IMG/VR virus record: IMGVR_UViG_3300049137_000091
Coordinates: 1-64,000 of that record
Reading direction: 5' to 3' (one strand)
Origin: a virus
Taxonomy: Duplodnaviria > Caudoviricetes
Length of the DNA: 64,000 nt
Shown here: in pieces, positions 1-24,426 of the stretch
Layout: each line of letters begins with the position of its first letter
Numbering within the stretch: position 1 is the first letter of the stretch
The notes under the pieces: model-generated
What the model was told of the DNA's origin: nothing
Databases searched by the model: none
The model's input: the letters and a program-made list of their open reading frames with translations, nothing else
Program-made: the position numbers and the translations under genes

Positions 1-47
1 CATGGTCTTCCTTCTTCCTTGGTCTGCCGGGCCGGTACCCCGTCCCG

Positions 48-65
48 ATGGATTAATTAAACCAT
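48..65 (-). promoter_or_regulatory. 18-bp AT-rich operator/-10 box (ATGGTTTAATTAATCCAT on minus strand)
   Basis: Matches consensus ATGRTTTAAYYAAWYCAT; TTGCGC lies 18 nt upstream of TTTAAT on the minus strand. Confidence 0.8.
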
Positions 66-96
66 CGATGGGGCCGGCCGCGCAACCTCGGACACC

Positions 97-1768: not shown

Positions 1769-2158
1769 TCAGTACGTGAACGTGTAGGTCACGCCGTCGG
1801 CCGTCTTCGTCTTGGCCAGCTCGCGGTCGTCCACCCGGGCGTCCAGCCACCGGTAGAGCCACGGCCGGGACCGGCCCGTAGCCGTCATGATCTCCTTGAA
1901 GTCGGACGCGGTGACCTGCTTCACCCCCTTCCGCCGCAGGGCGACCAGGTGCTGGTAGGTCACGTCGTTCGCCTCCTCCGTGCTCATCTTGGACTCGGGG
2001 GCGGGCAGTTCGATCACGGTGGCGCCGCCGCGCACCCCGGCGAAGATGAACCCCAGCGCCTCCTCGGCGACCGCGAGTCCGCACCGCCCGCACAGCGGGA
2101 CGGTCTTCGTGTGGACCGCTGAGGCGCCGCAGCCTGCGCAGTTCATTTCCTTGGTCAT
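1769..2158 (-). CDS. Zn-finger plus winged-helix protein resembling the TraB C-terminal wHTH
   Basis: CAGC..CGRC N-terminus; TGRSRPWLYRWLD aligns with TGRPRGWVYDELE of the adjacent TraB. Confidence 0.7.
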   Translation of the reverse strand: MTKEMNCAGCGASAVHTKTVPLCGRCGLAVAEEALGFIFAGVRGGATVIELPAPESKMSTEEANDVTYQHLVALRRKGVKQVTASDFKEIMTATGRSRPWLYRWLDARVDDRELAKTKTADGVTYTFTY

Positions 2159-2405
2159 CTGTCAGCCTTCCTCGTGTCTGCGTTCACCGTCCGGCCGACC
2201 GGGCCGGGCGGAAGAGAGATCCAAGACCGGAGAGTTCCGGCCCTCGTCAGGGGCCCTGTCCGGGCCTGTAATCGACCGTGCCCCGAGACAGCCAGCGGCT
2301 GTCTGCGGACGCGTCAGAAGCGCCACCAGGCCCCGTCAGATACGCGTCAGGGCGGGCTCCCTGACATGGGATGCCCGCCCTGACCTGGCGCTAACCTCCT
2401 GGGGC

Positions 2406-4391
2406 TCACACGGCCGCAGCCTCCGCGAGGACGCTGCGGGCGATGCCGTACACGGCCGTCTGGTTGGGCGGGCTGAGCCGGTCCAGCACGTCCATTTCCA
2501 CCAGGCGCTCCAGCTCGTCGTACACCCAGCCGCGCGGGCGCCCGGTCAGGTCCGGCAGGTCGGCCACAGCGTCGAAGGTCATCTGCGTCTCGCCGCTGCT
2601 GGCCAGCACGTTGATGCGGTTCAGGATCTCCGCGCGGGCCTGGTCGTCGGTCATCCGGTCGAAGTTGACCGGCTCGCACAGGGTGATCGGCTCGGACACC
2701 CGGGGTGCGGCCAGCGGAGCTGCGGCGTCGAACTCCTCGCCGTCCACGTTCACGACGAACGGGTCCAACGGCTCTTGACCTGCGAAGTCCTGCTCCACCT
2801 CGTCCACCTCCGGGGCGGTCTCCTCGTCCACGACCCCGGCCGCCAGGATGCGGTAGGAGCCCTCGTCCAGCTCGGCCCAGTGCGGCCGGGTCGCCTCGAT
2901 CATCGCCGTCCGGTCGGCGCGCTTCACGCGCGGCGCCCGGCCGTCGATGGGCCACAGTTCCTTCGGCGTGCCGGTCAGCTCGGCGTACAGGCTGCCCGGC
3001 GCGTCGTTGGCCCACTTGGTCGGGTCGGCCCCGGCCTCCAGCGTGGGCGCCTCCAGCGCGTACTTGGCGTCCTGGTACTCCTTCTGCCCGTGGGCGAGGC
3101 TCTGGGCGAACTGACCTCGGGTTTTGCGGGAGATGTTGTCGTGCGGCATGGTCTGCATCGACGCGCAGAAGTGCACGCCGACGCTGCGCAGCTTGCGCAG
3201 CGCCTCGTCGGCCTCCTCGTCCACGTAGGGCAGGACGTCGGCGGCCTCCTCGATGTCCAGGAAGATGGCCGGGATGCCGTGCATGTCGTACAGCTCGGGC
3301 ACCCACTGCTTGTAGCCCTTGCCGCCGTCCGCCCTGGTCAGCTTGCCGAAGAGGCCGGCACGGTACTCCACGAGGGGCACCAGGTTCTTCACCAGGCGCT
3401 CCGTGGTGTCCCGGTCCTTGGCGGCCAGGCCCAGCACCTCCTCGATATCGCCGAAGCTCTGCTGGAACTTCGCCGGATCGCCGACGACGGGGACGACGTC
3501 GCGGCGCTCGCGCATCTGGAGGATCGCCATGCAGATCGTGTCCGTCTTGCCCGCTCCGGACATGCCCGTGCACTTCGTGTGGGCCAGCGGCCTGGGGTTT
3601 TCGTCGTCCTCGGACCCGACGATCCACCACTCCATGGGGCTCCCGTCCACGCGGTTGCCCAGCCAGATCGGGGCGTCCGCGATGGAAGCCCCCAGGTGAC
3701 GCGGACCCGTCCACACGGACGGCTTGACGTCCCCGGCCGGCCGCATGAACTGGACGTCAACCTGGGACTCGTCGCCCGGCACCTTCAGCACCTTGACCTG
3801 CGAGGCGTCCACGCCGGCGACGGCCGCGATCTGCTCCTGCGCCGCCTGCGCCTCCTTCGCCGTGGTCGGGGCGTCCAGGTGGACGCGGGCCGTCAGCGTG
3901 CTGTCCGTCTCCTTCACGGCGCCGACCTTGGCGTCCTTGAACGCCCTGATCTTCTCCATGAAGGAGCCGTCACCCTCCTTGACCTGCGACTTGTCCACGT
4001 CACGCACCCCGGACAGGGCGGCGTGCCGCAGGTTCCAGCCGATGGACAGCGCCATGCCGCCGAGGGCCCACGCCTTGACGACGTCGGCCTGCCACGGCTC
4101 CAGCGACGCGGCGATGATGACCCAGGTCAGCGCGGCCGTGACGAACCCGGTGGCCATGACGCGGGTTTCCTGGCGACGCACCGACCAGGTCTTCCACGTG
4201 ATGTAGCTCAGGTAGGCGGAGGCCGCTCCGAGCATGGCCATCCACAGCCCGTCGTCACCGGCGACGACGTGCACCACCAGGGCCACCGGCCAGGCAGCCA
4301 AGGTGAGCAGCCAGGGGAGAAAGTAGCTGGTCAGACGCTCGGGCATGTTGAAGATGCCGAGGAATCCGACGCGGGTCGTTGCCTTGCTCAT
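2406..4391 (-). CDS. traB: TraB-family FtsK/SpoIIIE-type DNA translocase (Streptomyces conjugation protein)
   Basis: N-terminal TM segments, Walker A GMSGAGKT, Walker B-like IFLDIEEA, MQT motif, C-terminal wHTH (GRPRGWVYDELERL). Confidence 0.8.
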   Translation of the reverse strand: MSKATTRVGFLGIFNMPERLTSYFLPWLLTLAAWPVALVVHVVAGDDGLWMAMLGAASAYLSYITWKTWSVRRQETRVMATGFVTAALTWVIIAASLEPWQADVVKAWALGGMALSIGWNLRHAALSGVRDVDKSQVKEGDGSFMEKIRAFKDAKVGAVKETDSTLTARVHLDAPTTAKEAQAAQEQIAAVAGVDASQVKVLKVPGDESQVDVQFMRPAGDVKPSVWTGPRHLGASIADAPIWLGNRVDGSPMEWWIVGSEDDENPRPLAHTKCTGMSGAGKTDTICMAILQMRERRDVVPVVGDPAKFQQSFGDIEEVLGLAAKDRDTTERLVKNLVPLVEYRAGLFGKLTRADGGKGYKQWVPELYDMHGIPAIFLDIEEAADVLPYVDEEADEALRKLRSVGVHFCASMQTMPHDNISRKTRGQFAQSLAHGQKEYQDAKYALEAPTLEAGADPTKWANDAPGSLYAELTGTPKELWPIDGRAPRVKRADRTAMIEATRPHWAELDEGSYRILAAGVVDEETAPEVDEVEQDFAGQEPLDPFVVNVDGEEFDAAAPLAAPRVSEPITLCEPVNFDRMTDDQARAEILNRINVLASSGETQMTFDAVADLPDLTGRPRGWVYDELERLVEMDVLDRLSPPNQTAVYGIARSVLAEAAAV

Positions 4392-4406: not shown

Positions 4407-4982
4407 CTAGACGACGGTGAAGCCGCCGCGACGGCCCCCGGGTCGGTTGCTCTTGGTCCCGTCGTTCTCCAGCTCGTCCAGGAAGATCTCGAACCGGCGC
4501 CACGCCTTCACGGACTCGGCGGCGCCGGCGGCGCAGTTGTTGGCCAGCGCCGACAGGTTGCGGCCGATCATCCCGAGCGTGGCGGCCATCTTGGCGGCCT
4601 GCATGGGGTTGAGCCGGCCGGTGCTGGCCTGCCGGGCCTGCGCGCGGGCGGCAGCCTTGAGCTGGCCCTGGGCCATGTGCGCGGACACGGCCAGGTAGTT
4701 GAGCAGGGCGCGGTAGCCCTCGCAGAAGGCGTGCAGGTCGTCCTGGTTGGACAGCTCCATCGAGCCGATGGACTGGACGAGCTGGGAGAGGTTCTGGCCG
4801 CGCGTCCCGCCCGGCCGGTGGACGCGCTGGCTCTGACCTGCGGGCTTGCCGGTCGCGTACTGGTCGGGGTGCCCGTGGGCGTCCAGCCCCCGGCTGCGCA
4901 GCTCTTCCGCGCTGGCCCCCTTGACGCGGCCGGACGCGGTGGCGCTCTCGGGCGGGCCGAAGGGGTTCTTGGTCTCGTTCAT
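4407..4982 (-). CDS. TraA-like plasmid transfer protein
   Basis: Directly upstream of traB; LSNQDDLHAFCE and helical Ala-rich C-terminus resemble the TraA proteins of Streptomyces plasmids. Confidence 0.55.
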   Translation of the reverse strand: MNETKNPFGPPESATASGRVKGASAEELRSRGLDAHGHPDQYATGKPAGQSQRVHRPGGTRGQNLSQLVQSIGSMELSNQDDLHAFCEGYRALLNYLAVSAHMAQGQLKAAARAQARQASTGRLNPMQAAKMAATLGMIGRNLSALANNCAAGAAESVKAWRRFEIFLDELENDGTKSNRPGGRRGGFTVV

Positions 4983-5061: not shown

Positions 5062-5079
5062 ACGGTTTAACTTAATCAT
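5062..5079 (-). promoter_or_regulatory. 18-bp AT-rich operator box upstream of traA-traB
   Basis: ATGATTAAGTTAAACCGT on minus strand. Confidence 0.7.
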
Positions 5080-5094
5080 GTCACACTCAGCGGC

Positions 5095-6009
5095 CTACGA
5101 GAAGGCGCGGTTCACGGTCTTCCGCAGGGTGTCCGTGTTGACAGCCTCGTAGCCCGGCAGGGTCGGGACGATCGCCTTGATCTCGTCCTTGGTGTGCTGC
5201 ATGTCCCGCAGCCACCGGACGACGTCCGGCAGCTTCTTCTCCAGGACGTCCGCCGGGACATCCGGAGTTGTCCCGGCCCCGGAAGCGGAAGGCGCCGGCT
5301 TGGTGGTCTTCTTCAGCGAGACGTTGACCGTGGACCGCTTCGGGACATCTGCCGGGACAACGGCCTTGTCCCGGGCGGGACGCTTCGTCTCGGCGGCCGG
5401 GACAACCGGGGCCGGGACAACCGGCTGCGGGACATCGACGGCCGGGACAACCGGCTGCGGGACATCGACGGCCGGGACAACCAGGGCCGGGACAACCGGG
5501 GCCGGGACAACCGGGGCCGGGACATCGACGGCCGGCCCGTTGTCCCGGGACAGGCCGACGGTCGCCGGGGACATCGCGGCCTGACGCTTACGAACGCTGA
5601 TCAGCACCTGGTGCATGAGGGCGCCGAACGCGATCAGCGCGGCCGACGGCGGTACGGCGGCCACGATGTAGTCCAGGACCGGGGCCTTCTCGCCGACGCC
5701 GGCCACGTTCAGACCGATGGACCCGGCGGAGCCGACGATGGTCAGGCCGATACCCCACTTGTTGGACTGCCCGCGCAGACCTGACACGAACGTCAGCAGC
5801 TCGCCAGCGATGATGAACAGGTCCAACGTCGCAGGCCAGGCCCACGAACGGGCCGGTGACTCCTCCAGACCGTGCTCGCGGGCGACGTCAGCGAGGTGGG
5901 TGTAGGACAGCCAGAAGGCGATGGCGGTCAGGACGATGATGACGAAGCCGGCGGCCACCAGCGCGGTGAACGCCGCGCGCTCGGCCGGGTCGTCGTAGCT
6001 CTTGGACAT
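5095..6009 (-). CDS. DUF2637-like membrane protein with VPA repeat linker and short C-terminal helical domain
   Basis: AFWLSYTHL...AWPATLD and AAVPP motifs, four TM segments; ATG 6009 has SD and ACCAAGGAA. Confidence 0.75.
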   Translation of the reverse strand: MSKSYDDPAERAAFTALVAAGFVIIVLTAIAFWLSYTHLADVAREHGLEESPARSWAWPATLDLFIIAGELLTFVSGLRGQSNKWGIGLTIVGSAGSIGLNVAGVGEKAPVLDYIVAAVPPSAALIAFGALMHQVLISVRKRQAAMSPATVGLSRDNGPAVDVPAPVVPAPVVPALVVPAVDVPQPVVPAVDVPQPVVPAPVVPAAETKRPARDKAVVPADVPKRSTVNVSLKKTTKPAPSASGAGTTPDVPADVLEKKLPDVVRWLRDMQHTKDEIKAIVPTLPGYEAVNTDTLRKTVNRAFS

Positions 6010-6047
6010 GATCGATTCCTCGGTTCCTTGGTCGGTGCTTTCCTCGG

Positions 6048-6065
6048 TCGATTTACTTAAATCAT
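6048..6065 (-). promoter_or_regulatory. 18-bp AT-rich operator box
   Basis: ATGATTTAAGTAAATCGA on minus strand, upstream of the DUF2637 gene and abutting the array. Confidence 0.7.
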
Positions 6066-6320
6066 AGTACCCGGACATGTCCCGGGACAACCCCGCGCCG
6101 GGACACGCGTTGTCCCGGGACATCCGGCTGAGCGGGACAACGCGCCGGCGGGACATGTCCCGGGGCTATCCGCTGCGGGACACGGCTTGTCCCGGGACAA
6201 CAGGGCACCGGGACATCTCGGCAGCGGGACAGCCCGTGTCCCGGGACAACCTTCTGCGGGACACCGGACACGACGAAGCCCCGGGACACGATCTGTCCCG
6301 GGGCTGTTGTCCCGCCGCGC

Positions 6321-6569
6321 TCAGGTGTCCCGTTGTCCCGTTGTCCCGGGGACATCAAGCGGAATTGCCATCTCGCTGTAGTGGAAGCTGACGATCTCGA
6401 TGTCCCCCACCGGGACACCCTCATCCCGGGACAAGTCCCGGACGACGACCGCGCGCAGCCGTTCCTCGCTGCACGGGGCCGGGGACACCGCTGTCCCCTC
6501 CAGTGTCCGGGGCTGTCCCCGCAGGATCACTGACGCGCCATAGACGTATCCGTGCTGTGTCCCGGTCAC
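6321..6569 (-). CDS. Hypothetical protein (82 aa) overlapping the repeat array
   Basis: GTG start overlaps the TGA of the 6566-7009 ORF (GTGA coupling). Confidence 0.45.
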   Translation of the reverse strand: MTGTQHGYVYGASVILRGQPRTLEGTAVSPAPCSEERLRAVVVRDLSRDEGVPVGDIEIVSFHYSEMAIPLDVPGTTGQRDT

Positions 6570-7009
6570 CGCATGAGTCCGGGGTCCCCGGCGAACTGCC
6601 ACGCGGGGCGACCGTCCCGGGACGTCCGGGACAGAGCCCCGACGCTCGCCAGGAAGTTGAGGCGGTCGGACACCCACGACATCGGCAGGCCGATGTCCCG
6701 GGCGATGTCGGCGAAGTCGTCCAGGACGACGACGTCACGCCCGGACCGGGCCAGCGTGGCCAGCCTGCGCTCCATGGACCGGGGCAGGCCGTCGGCCCGG
6801 TGCTCCTGCGCTCGCGCCTCCTCATCCTCGGCACCGGCGTAGATCCCGTCCCAGGCGATCCTGCGCAGCTCGCCGGCGGCGAAGGCGAGCCGCGACTGCT
6901 CGTGCCGGGGCACGGACCGCAGGATCTCCCGGGCCCGTGCCGGGTCGTCGGCGAGCACGGCGCGCAGGGCGTCGGCCGCCGCCTCGGTGGTTGCGTCAGT
7001 GGTTTTCAT
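6566..7009 (-). CDS. Hypothetical protein, possible C-terminal winged helix
   Basis: GAGGAG SD; FADIARDIGLPMSWVSDRLNFL helix-turn-helix-like segment. Confidence 0.6.
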   Translation of the reverse strand: MKTTDATTEAAADALRAVLADDPARAREILRSVPRHEQSRLAFAAGELRRIAWDGIYAGAEDEEARAQEHRADGLPRSMERRLATLARSGRDVVVLDDFADIARDIGLPMSWVSDRLNFLASVGALSRTSRDGRPAWQFAGDPGLMR

Positions 7010-8241: not shown

Positions 8242-8272
8242 GAGTCCTTCCTCCGTGGTCGTGGGCGTGCCG

Positions 8273-8290
8273 ATGATTTATCTTAATCGG
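8273..8290 (-). promoter_or_regulatory. Degenerate AT-rich operator box
   Basis: ATGATTTATCTTAATCGG, 32 nt upstream of the 8241 start. Confidence 0.55.
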
Positions 8291-8307
8291 TATACCCGGG
8301 CCTGTCA

Positions 8308-14408: not shown

Positions 14409-14445
14409 CGTTCCGTGGTCCTTCCGTCGCGGGGCACACGGCCCC

Positions 14446-14463
14446 ATGGATTAATTAAACCAT
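14446..14463 (-). promoter_or_regulatory. 18-bp AT-rich operator box
   Basis: Identical to the 48-65 copy. Confidence 0.8.
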
Positions 14464-14474
14464 ACTCGGGCGAG

Positions 14475-24385: not shown

Positions 24386-24403
24386 ATGGTTTAATCAAAT
24401 CAT
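24386..24403 (+). promoter_or_regulatory. 18-bp AT-rich operator/-10 box
   Basis: ATGGTTTAATCAAATCAT; TTGCCC 18 nt upstream of TTTAAT. Confidence 0.8.
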
Positions 24404-24426
24404 CGTGACCAAGGAAGCGAGGAAAC

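What the first reader, a model, noticed from the sequence alone, without database searches (positions are those of the whole stretch)
5250..6635. About 48 GGGACA/TGTCCC motifs running through a CDS and the adjacent intergenic DNA
Seen: the hexamer, often CCGGGACA or the palindrome TGTCCCGGGACA, fills 6070-6635. It also forms the VPA-repeat linker of the DUF2637 gene and part of the 6321-6569 ORF. Motifs occur in both orientations. Known: TraB binds 8-bp direct repeats in clt loci (GACCCGGA for pSVH1), and pIJ101 SpdA binds palindromic sps sites. Inference: this is either an unusually large clt or a centromere-like array bound by the membrane-anchored DUF2637 protein, partly encoded within its own gene.
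Basis: partly seen in the sequence, partly recalled or inferred. Interest (0 to 1): 0.8.

Follow-up and report, generated by a model that had tools for sequence, protein, structure and literature searches.

The report
Docking-site array inside membrane-anchor gene
An 89-kb Streptomyces-type phage-plasmid has written about 50 copies of the DNA word CGGGACA into and just upstream of the gene for a membrane protein with a small helical tail; these are most likely that protein's own docking sites, holding the element's DNA at the cell membrane beside a plasmid-type DNA pump.

Summary
Exactly 48 GGGACA/TGTCCC hexamers lie in 5250-6635, and 50 of the genome's 113 lie in 5202-6699. This is the only outstanding word cluster in the 89.5-kb phage genome.

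The word is kept at the DNA level. It sits in several reading frames and both orientations, and it forces rare codons. The membrane-protein gene holds 18 copies, against 2.4 expected from its amino-acid sequence.

About 13 related phage-plasmids carry the same array. Others carry a different word in the same place: CGAAAGC, CGAGAGC, GAGACG or GTGGCCAC. The word follows the type of C-terminal helical domain of the membrane protein. It does not follow that protein's membrane domain (four unrelated types) or the DNA-reading helix of TraB. Arrays also occur in DUF2637 genes of phages without TraB.

A separate small CTGAC repeat cluster lies right after traB, where clt sites normally lie.

So the "giant clt" reading is disfavoured. 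The [quoted passage not shown] reading is favoured at about 0.55, but binding is inferred, not shown.

This scan has noted the same phenomenon before on other genomes, with the words GAGACG, CGGAAC, TGCCAG and TGTCCCG. I found no published description.

The parts
6078..6354 (.). Core of the array. It holds 23 sCGGGACA sites in 277 bp, in both orientations, including four TGTCCCGGGACA palindromes and one tail-to-tail GGGACATGTCCC pair. Same-strand sites are spaced 15-17 bp apart. The last four sites overlap the 3' end of the 82-aa ORF.
5202..5573 (.). Part of the array that lies inside the DUF2637 gene: 18 sites. Nine are exactly 15 bp apart at 5399-5519 and encode the VVPAP/VDVPQP linker.
   Evidence: Observed 18 against 2.4 +/- 1.2 (max 7 of 500) after synonymous resampling. 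The rare codons GTT (2.5% of Val) and GAT (5.6% of Asp) supply the T of TGTCCC.
6401..6699 (.). Sparser upstream tail of the array: 9 sites inside the 82-aa ORF and the 3' end of the 147-aa ORF.
5095..6009 (-). Membrane-anchor gene (304 aa). Residues 1-145 (6009-5575) form a four-helix DUF2637 membrane domain. Residues about 146-250 form a Pro/Val/Ala-rich linker. Residues about 251-304 (5259-5098) form a small helical C-terminal domain, the presumed DNA reader.
   Evidence: Pfam PF10935, E 1.9e-13. PHROG 733. C-terminal model with mean pLDDT 72 and helices at 36-45, 50-59 and 68-79 of the last 80 residues.
6061..6090 (-). Sigma-70-like promoter for the membrane-anchor gene. The -35 hexamer TTGTCC (6090-6085) overlaps the promoter-proximal palindrome. 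The -10 hexamer TATGAT (6066-6061) lies in an AT-rich element at 6048-6072.
6321..6569 (-). 82-aa gene. It starts at a GTG that overlaps the stop codon of the upstream gene (GTGA). It is conserved in relatives, including ones with a different array word.
6566..7009 (-). 147-aa gene. Its N-terminal domain is conserved upstream of the array in all TraB-bearing relatives. Its C-terminus looks like a winged helix.
4407..4982 (-). TraA-like gene (191 aa), directly upstream of traB.
   Evidence: BLASTP against pSN22 and pJV1 TraA, E 4e-5 and 2e-5
2406..4391 (-). TraB/FtsK-like DNA translocase (661 aa) with a C-terminal winged helix.
   Evidence: tblastn full-length matches to annotated plasmid TraB of pSN22, pWTY27 and others, about 24% identity over 95% of the length. 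PHROG 24831 and 1358.
2231..2400 (.). Second, small repeat cluster right after the traB stop codon: 6-7 CTGAC/GTCAG sites plus a hairpin. This is the candidate true clt.
   Evidence: Six sites in 170 bp against 2.75 per kb genome-wide. Relatives have 5-10 repeats at the same place: CTGACA, GTGTCA, CTGATCAG or GTGATCACACCC.
1769..2158 (-). 129-aa protein with a zinc ribbon and a winged helix. The winged helix resembles that of TraB. The gene is absent from the more distant array-bearing relatives.

Best explanation
The array is a cis-acting cluster of about 50 docking sites. The core word is sCGGGACA, partly arranged as the 12-bp palindrome TGTCCCGGGACA. The proposed reader is the small helical C-terminal domain of the membrane protein whose own gene the array overlaps.

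That protein has a four-helix membrane anchor (DUF2637), a Pro/Val-rich linker of about 100 residues, and a three-helix tail. Many copies bound to the array would fix the 89-kb phage-plasmid DNA to the cytoplasmic membrane, next to the co-transcribed TraA/TraB DNA-transfer proteins. That would serve hyphal spreading, transfer or positioning of the episome. The promoter-proximal palindrome overlaps the -35 hexamer, so the same binding would also repress the gene.

Shown: the array exists, it is selected at the DNA level, and its word co-varies with the C-terminal domain type. Inferred: that this domain binds the word, that binding tethers DNA to the membrane, and what the tether is for.
For: (1) DNA-level selection. 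Synonymous resampling gives 2.4-4.9 expected sites against 18, 30, 30 and 26 observed in the window and in L006-L008. No resample of 500 exceeds 11. The sites fall in 4-5 frame/orientation classes and use rare GTT and GAT codons. Other loci give the same result with other words.

(2) Conservation. About 13 distinct relatives (TraB 49-70% identical) keep GGGACA arrays both upstream of and inside the membrane-protein gene.

(3) Co-variation.
- C-domain type 1 (..P(G/D)..(D/N)(S/T)(L/V/I)..(A/S)I.R) always goes with GG(G)ACA, across four unrelated N-terminal membrane domains: DUF2637 in the window, L013, L018 and L087; the L006 type; the L025 type; the L027 type.
- Type 2 (GVSVTGDSIRAHR; L017 and L020) goes with CGA(A/G)AGC.
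- The MerR-like type (L029 and L030, with two different N-domains) goes with GAGACG. In L029 this word is also in the upstream intergenic array.
- The GIS.RT.RR type (L004 and L005) goes with GTGGCCAC.

(4) Other candidate readers do not co-vary. The TraB recognition helix is identical in L006 and L020, and the 87-aa wHTH is near-invariant. The Zn-wHTH gene is missing from L025-L030.

(5) Arrays of locus-specific words recur in the linker DNA of DUF2637 genes from 67 viral contigs: GCGGAAC, CCGTCG, CTCCAG. These include a 98%-complete provirus with no TraB.

(6) The promoter -35 hexamer overlaps the proximal palindrome.

(7) Precedent: SpdA2 of pIJ101 binds 12-bp palindromes that lie inside its own coding sequence, and these affect plasmid stability (PMC4170104).
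Against: No binding data exist for any protein.

The type-1 C-terminal domain matches no Pfam family. Its model finds no significant structural match: Foldseek E is at least 1.2, and the best VIA Z is 6.0, in the range common for small helical bundles. So its DNA-binding nature rests on its helix pattern and on co-variation alone.

The linker array and the C-domain coding DNA are adjacent, so part of the co-variation could be co-inheritance. Only the upstream arrays are separated from the C-domain, by the N-domain DNA.

The plasmid pS1D4-14.2 (L010/L017) keeps a type-1 domain in a second ORF but has no GGGACA array.

The type-2 loci have no upstream array.

Close DUF2637 relatives such as phiSASD1, Dubu and OnionKnight have no clear array.
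Confidence: 0.55

Rival explanations
1. The array is an unusually large clt. TraB (or TraB together with the Zn-wHTH paralog) loads on the sCGGGACA repeats and pumps the double-stranded episome into the neighbouring hypha.
For: The word is 8 bp long, like the TraB recognition sequences of pSVH1 and the 7-9-bp clt repeats of pJV1 and pWTY27 (PMC3583192). The array lies in the same operon as traA and traB. In L025, L026 and L087 the word continues into the 5' part of traB.
Against: The TraB recognition helix does not change when the word changes: L006/L015 against L020, and L008 against L010. Equivalent arrays exist in TraB-less phages. Known clt loci have 4-9 repeats at or after the 3' end of the tra gene, and such a cluster exists separately here at about 2231-2400.
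Confidence: 0.12
2. The array is the plasmid-state replication origin or a copy-control iteron field. This would resemble lambda ori, whose iterons lie in the linker-coding part of gene O.
For: Iteron-like repeats lie inside the linker-coding DNA of a gene, next to a short AT-rich element at 6048-6072. pZL12-type plasmid-phages replicate from a repA locus plus iterons (my own knowledge of Zhong et al. 2010; the paper is not held).
Against: The overlapped gene encodes a membrane protein, not an initiator. The AT-rich element is one of about 27 copies of a genome-wide promoter-like motif, not a unique unwinding region. The replication genes lie 13-18 kb away. The 7-kb DUF2637 plasmid has a separate rep gene.
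Confidence: 0.1
3. The array is only an operator field for transcriptional control of the tra/spread operon, with no tethering role. The reader could be the membrane protein or one of the neighbouring winged-helix proteins (147 aa, 129 aa).
For: The proximal palindrome overlaps the -35 hexamer. Several small wHTH genes flank the array.
Against: Fifty sites spread over 1.5 kb, most of them inside coding DNA and downstream of the promoter, are far more than repression needs. The flanking wHTH proteins are either invariant across word changes or absent from array-bearing relatives.
Confidence: 0.1
4. The array is the centromere of a partition system.
For: Repeat arrays just upstream of the operon that encodes their binder are typical of type Ib, II and III partition loci (my own knowledge). 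SpdA2/sps affects stability.
Against: No partition NTPase lies next to the array. A ParA gene (74121-74909), with a ParB-like ORF and an 18-bp palindrome, lies elsewhere in the genome.
Confidence: 0.08

Closest known systems
SpdA2/sps of Streptomyces plasmid pIJ101, and SpdA of pJV1, pSN22 and pSVH1 (Thoma et al. 2014, PMC4170104)
   Same: A plasmid-borne DNA-binding protein whose short palindromic binding sites lie inside or just upstream of its own coding sequence, in a poorly conserved part of the protein. The sites impose an S-R-D peptide motif, which TGTCCCGGGACA also encodes here. The two palindromes share GTCnCGnGAC. The phenotype is in stability or spreading, not in transfer itself.
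   Different: SpdA is a small soluble protein with an N-terminal CxxC...YCSxxCRQRAY domain. No such protein is encoded in this genome. It has 2-3 sites, not about 50. The sps palindrome is conserved across plasmids, whereas here the word changes between relatives. SpdA has no membrane anchor.
clt loci with TraB recognition repeats (pSVH1 GACCCGGA; pJV1; pWTY27; pIJ101)
   Same: Short 7-9-bp words repeated in direct and inverted order inside a Streptomyces-type TraB transfer module.
   Different: Known clt loci have 4-9 repeats at or after the 3' end of the tra gene and are read by the TraB winged helix. This array has about 50 sites upstream of the module, does not co-vary with the TraB helix, and occurs without TraB in other phages. 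A separate clt-like cluster sits after traB.
Streptomyces plasmid-phage pZL12/phiZL12 (Zhong et al. 2010, J Bacteriol 192:3747; cited in PMC4487206 and PMC3583192)
   Same: An element of about 90 kb that combines tailed-phage genes, ParA-type partition and a TraB-type transfer locus. Transfer of pZL12 needs the main tra gene plus two adjacent genes.
   Different: The pZL12 sequence and paper were not available here, so kinship and the presence of an array in pZL12 were not tested. What I could read describes no repeat array.
Lambda ori inside gene O
   Same: Binding-site repeats overprinted on the DNA that encodes the interdomain linker of the protein that binds them.
   Different: Lambda O is a soluble replication initiator with four iterons and an adjacent unwinding region. 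Here the protein is a membrane protein with about 50 sites and no initiator features.
Phage phi29 p16.7 (my own knowledge)
   Same: A membrane anchor, a spacer and a small helical C-terminal DNA-binding domain that holds phage DNA at the membrane.
   Different: p16.7 binds DNA without sequence specificity and has no cognate site array. There is no sequence relationship.

Membership tests
clt / TraB recognition sequence array | Short (7-9 bp) repeats in several copies | tested here: met
   sCGGGACA, about 44 CGGGACA copies in 5200-6700
clt / TraB recognition sequence array | Location at or just after the 3' end of the traB-type gene | tested here: not met
   The array lies at 5202-6699, and traB ends at 2406 on the minus strand. 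A different cluster (CTGAC, 2231-2400) holds that position.
clt / TraB recognition sequence array | The word is read by helix alpha-3 of the TraB winged helix, so word and helix should change together | tested here: not met
   L006/L015 (GGGACA) and L020 (CGAGAGC) share WVYGELEQL. L008 (GGGACA) and L010 (CGAAAGC) differ by one residue.
clt / TraB recognition sequence array | Occurs together with a TraB gene | tested here: not met
   Equivalent arrays occur in DUF2637 genes of a 98%-complete provirus (L058) and a 57.6-kb contig (L004) with no TraB match.
clt / TraB recognition sequence array | Required in cis for transfer | not testable with these tools
   Needs mating assays.
SpdA/sps system | Binder has the SpdA N-terminal CxxC...YCSxxCRQRAY domain | tested here: not met
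   No six-frame match anywhere in the 89-kb genome. SpdA of pJV1 and pSN22 was recovered as a positive reference.
SpdA/sps system | 12-bp palindrome CGTCACGTGACG | tested here: not met
   The palindrome here is TGTCCCGGGACA. It shares only GTCnCGnGAC.
SpdA/sps system | Sites lie inside or next to the binder's own coding sequence | tested here: inconclusive
   The sites do lie inside the gene of the candidate binder. That this protein binds them is inferred.
Pfam PF10935 (DUF2637) membrane proteins | Match to the family model above its gathering score | tested here: met
   E 1.9e-13, 51.1 bits against a cut-off of 22.8, residues 20-135. The corresponding proteins of L006, L020, L025 and L027 do not match.
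Partition centromere (parC/parS-type repeat array) | Array adjacent to an operon that encodes a partition NTPase and its centromere-binding protein | tested here: not met
   No ParA-, ParM- or TubZ-type gene lies next to the array. ParA is at 74121-74909, with its own ParB-like ORF and palindrome.
Helix-turn-helix DNA-binding domain (C-terminal 55 aa of the membrane protein) | Match to a known HTH family or fold | tested here: inconclusive
   No Pfam match for the type-1 domain. There are sub-threshold HTH_17, HTH_29 and HTH_11 hits for other C-domain types. The three-helix model has pLDDT 72. Foldseek E is at least 1.2 and VIA Z at most 6.0.
pZL12-type Streptomyces plasmid-phage | About 90 kb, with tailed-phage structural genes plus ParA plus a TraB-type transfer gene | tested here: met
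   89,468 bp. Portal, terminase and primase-polymerase genes. ParA. TraB homologue. Sequence kinship to pZL12 itself was not tested, because the record was not available.

The most novel reading that the evidence does not exclude
Overprinting a binder's docking-site array on the linker-coding DNA of its own gene may be a general, undescribed device of actinobacterial phages and plasmids. A membrane-anchored DNA-binding protein (DUF2637 or one of at least three unrelated anchor domains) and a locus-specific 6-8-bp word would evolve together as a portable 'membrane tether' cassette. The cassette would position episomal DNA at the hyphal membrane for spreading, transfer or inheritance, independently of ParABS and of TraB/clt.
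Probability: 0.45. Interest if true: 0.75.

Novelty: new variant of a known kind. Interest (0 to 1): 0.62.

Why it matters
How large low-copy episomes are positioned and passed along in branching, non-dividing Streptomyces hyphae is poorly understood. The roles of the 'spread' genes of Streptomyces plasmids are still largely unknown.

A membrane protein that carries its own high-avidity docking array would give a concrete, testable mechanism: sequence-specific tethering of the element to the membrane, next to the TraB pore.

It is also a striking case of dual coding. A protein linker's sequence is dictated by about 20 DNA-binding sites, against codon preference. The word and the reader domain can be swapped together between elements, which offers a natural specificity set for engineering orthogonal DNA tethers.

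Finally, it separates two repeat arrays that are easily confused when annotating actinobacterial mobile elements: the big array and the clt-like cluster after traB.

Tried and rejected
I found the real SpdA ORFs of pJV1 and pSN22 through their sps palindromes, but no CxxC...YCSxxCRQRAY protein in any frame of this genome. The 129-aa Zn-wHTH protein has a different N-terminus.

(b) Fold evidence for the C-terminal domain. The AlphaFold model gave no significant Foldseek match, and only Z of 6.0 or less with VIA-align. Pfam and the ESM Atlas gave nothing usable.

(c) Are SpdB-type spread proteins DUF2637 members? The pSN22 and pJV1 spd-region proteins do not match PF10935. pSVH1 SpdB2 itself was not available.

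(d) Close phage relatives of the DUF2637 domain (phiSASD1, Dubu, OnionKnight) show no dense array.

(e) Widening the family. A genome scan found 3 loci. A metagenome scan found 5. A search of 401 Streptomycetaceae genomes found only the seed genome.

(f) The pZL12 paper (PMC2897331) and Vogelmann et al. 2011 (PMC3117642) are not held. What I say about them comes from citing papers or from my own knowledge.

(g) Megablast of the first 25 kb of the window against phage records gave no match.

(h) ParB_N (PF02195) gave no match in the genome. The ORF after parA is called ParB-like only from its position and an HTH-like stretch.
Full report
**What the DNA is.** The window is the first 64 kb of a single 89,468-bp virus record with 70.9% G+C. 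It encodes a portal, a large terminase, a head protease and a primase-helicase-polymerase. It also encodes ParA at 74121-74909. On the minus strand of 1.7-7.0 kb lies a Streptomyces-plasmid-type transfer module.

- The 661-aa protein at 2406-4391 aligns over about 95% of its length, at about 24% identity, with annotated TraB of pSN22, pWTY27 and many other plasmids.
- The 191-aa protein just upstream is a distant TraA homologue (E 2e-5 to 4e-5).

The element is therefore a tailed phage-plasmid of the kind known from pZL12. That comparison rests on citing papers, because the pZL12 paper itself is not held.

**The observation.** Exactly 48 GGGACA/TGTCCC sites lie in 5250-6635. In the whole genome, 50 of 113 lie in 5202-6699, about 47 times the density elsewhere. 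All five TGTCCCGGGACA palindromes are there. Alignment of the sites shows a longer word, sCGGGACA. The array has three parts:

- 18 sites in the linker-coding part of the DUF2637 gene, nine of them exactly 15 bp apart;
- 23 sites in 277 bp of mostly intergenic DNA at 6078-6354, with same-strand sites 15-17 bp apart and palindromes interspersed;
- a thinner tail running into the 82-aa and 147-aa genes upstream.

No other hexamer clusters comparably anywhere in the genome.

**The word is selected as DNA, not as protein.** I kept the amino-acid sequence of the membrane protein and redrew every codon from the genome's own usage. This gives 2.4 +/- 1.2 sites (max 7 of 500), against 18 observed. In the corresponding genes of three relatives, 26-30 sites are observed against 4.7-4.9 expected. 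The sites occupy 4-5 frame/orientation classes, giving V-P, V/M-S-P, S-R-D and G-H/T peptides. The T of TGTCCC comes from GTT and GAT, which make up 2.5% of Val codons and 5.6% of Asp codons here. The window's nine 15-bp tandem copies could partly be identical by descent. The relatives' linkers are not tandem and still carry the word, so slippage is not enough to explain it.

**Relatives.** Scans with TraB and with the DUF2637 domain gave about 20 distinct related loci. About 13 keep GGGACA arrays both upstream of and inside the membrane-protein gene. In the L006-type genes even the first codons, ATGTCCCGCATGTCCCGC, are built from the word. Other relatives have a different word in the same place:

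| Locus | Word |
|---|---|
| L010 = L017 (plasmid pS1D4-14.2) | CGAAAGC |
| L020 | CGAGAGC |
| L027/L032 | GGACAG |
| L029, L030 | GAGACG (with GGGACGCGTCCC palindromes) |
| L004, L005 | GTGGCCAC |

- The GG(G)ACA word goes with one C-terminal domain type, three short helices ending ..P(G/D)..(D/N)(S/T)(L/V/I)..(A/S)I.R. It does so across four unrelated membrane domains: DUF2637 in the window, L013, L018 and L087, and the L006, L025 and L027 types, which match no Pfam family.
- Loci with the L006-type membrane domain but a different tail carry a different word. L017 and L020 have the GVSVTGDSIRAHR tail. L029 has a MerR-like tail.
- L029 and L030 share the MerR-like tail and the GAGACG word although their membrane domains differ. 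In L029 the word is also in the upstream intergenic array, separated from the tail-coding DNA by the conserved membrane-domain DNA.

The other candidates do not behave this way.

- The TraB recognition helix is identical in L006/L015 and L020.
- The 87-aa MarR-like protein is nearly invariant.
- The Zn-wHTH gene is absent from L025-L030.

A survey of 67 viral contigs with DUF2637 genes showed further locus-specific arrays in the linker DNA: GCGGAAC in L046 and L058, CCGTCG in L061 and L066, and CTCCAG in L073. Most exceed every synonymous resample. One is a 98%-complete provirus without TraB. The simplest common factor is therefore the membrane protein's own tail.

**Weak points.**
- The type-1 tail has no Pfam match.
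- Its model (pLDDT 72, helices 36-45, 50-59 and 68-79 of the last 80 residues) finds only non-significant helical-bundle and HTH-like neighbours.
- Linker array and tail are adjacent in the DNA, so part of the co-variation may be linkage.
- L010 keeps a type-1 tail in a second ORF without any GGGACA array.

**A separate clt candidate.** Right after the traB stop codon, at about 2231-2400, there is a hairpin followed by 6-7 CTGAC/GTCAG sites, against 2.75 per kb genome-wide. All relatives have 5-10 short repeats at this same place: CTGACA in L027, GTGTCA in L026, CTGATCAG in L025 and L028, GTGATCACACCC in L029. This is where clt lies in pWTY27 (repeats of TGACACC) and other plasmids. So the transfer module probably has its own clt, and the large array is something else.

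**Mechanism proposed.** The four hydrophobic helices are followed by VRKRQ, which by the positive-inside rule places the linker and tail in the cytoplasm (an inference from the sequence). Many anchored tails binding about 50 sites would hold the episome at the membrane beside TraA and TraB. The sigma-70-like promoter has its -35 hexamer, TTGTCC, inside the proximal palindrome, so the same binding should repress the gene.

Partition is probably handled elsewhere. ParA is followed by a ParB-like ORF that contains an 18-bp palindrome.

The closest documented precedent is SpdA2/sps of pIJ101. There, 12-bp palindromes inside the binder's own coding sequence encode an S-R-D motif and affect stability rather than transfer. 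This system differs in four ways: the binder family (no SpdA-like protein here), the membrane anchor, the 20-fold larger site number, and a word that changes between relatives.

**Standing.** Earlier notes of this scan describe the same phenomenon on other genomes, with the words GAGACG, CGGAAC, TGCCAG and TGTCCCG. They reach the same reading. They are unchecked AI notes and are not independent evidence, but I saw GAGACG and CGGAAC arrays myself in L029/L030 and in L046/L058. In the paper library, 'DUF2637' occurs in only two unrelated papers, and I found no description of such arrays.

I rate this a new variant of a known kind, that kind being cis-acting protein-binding repeat arrays of mobile elements. 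My confidence is high that the array is real and selected as DNA.

Noticed in passing
window 47-70, 825-848, 1720-1745, 5065-5084, 6048-6072, 8272-8295, 14445-14468, 24386-24407 and others; also beyond the window up to 89044: About 27 copies of an AT-rich quasi-palindrome of about 20 bp (consensus near ATGAATTAATTAAACCAT / ATGATTTAAGTAAATCAT) sit in intergenic DNA of a 71% G+C genome, one in front of most operons. Relatives have it too. It is probably a phage-specific promoter or operator.
   Followed up: partly
window 2231-2400: A hairpin plus 6-7 CTGAC/GTCAG repeats lie right after the traB stop codon and in front of the Zn-wHTH gene. Relatives have repeats at the same position, with varying words. 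This is the candidate true clt and/or the operator of the 129-aa protein.
   Followed up: partly
window 5575-6009 compared with L006:4054-4760, L025:5554-6093 and L027:5275-5874: Close relatives (TraB 65-70% identical) carry unrelated membrane-anchor domains in the same gene slot. Both sides of the slot are flanked by the same word array, and the C-terminal tail is kept. This looks like cassette exchange of the anchor domain.
   Followed up: partly
L010:4723-5312 (plasmid pS1D4-14.2, NZ_CP041606.1): An ORF with an endonuclease-VII-like CxxC...HCH...CN motif is fused to a CGAAAGC-laden linker and the type-1 C-terminal tail. The membrane protein upstream has acquired a different HTH tail. The annotated start at 4902 may be too far downstream.
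   Followed up: no
genome 74121-76000 (outside the window): ParA (262 aa) is followed by an overlapping ParB-like ORF starting at 74906. That ORF contains the perfect 18-bp palindrome TGTCGAAAATTTTCGACA at about 75300, a likely parS inside parB. Pfam ParB_N does not match.
   Followed up: partly
L106 (plasmid pADI95-16d, NZ_CP033585.1, 7012 bp): A 7-kb Streptomyces plasmid consists of little more than rep, a sigma-like gene, a DUF2637 gene with a Pro-rich linker and HTH tail (8-9 GGGGAC/GGGACA sites in the linker DNA), and an SpdA-like ORF (RRYCKRSHRQRAYE). It is a minimal setting for testing what DUF2637 proteins do.
   Followed up: partly
L087:4407-4881, L025:7270-7681, L026:7187-7693: In more distant relatives the GGGACA word also clusters in the 5' part of traB itself, so the array can spread over neighbouring coding DNA.
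   Followed up: no
window 1769-2158 and 2409-2600: The 129-aa protein's winged helix (GRSRPWLYRWLD) resembles that of TraB (GRPRGWVYDELE). It may compete for the same sites after traB. The gene is present only in the closer relatives.
   Followed up: partly
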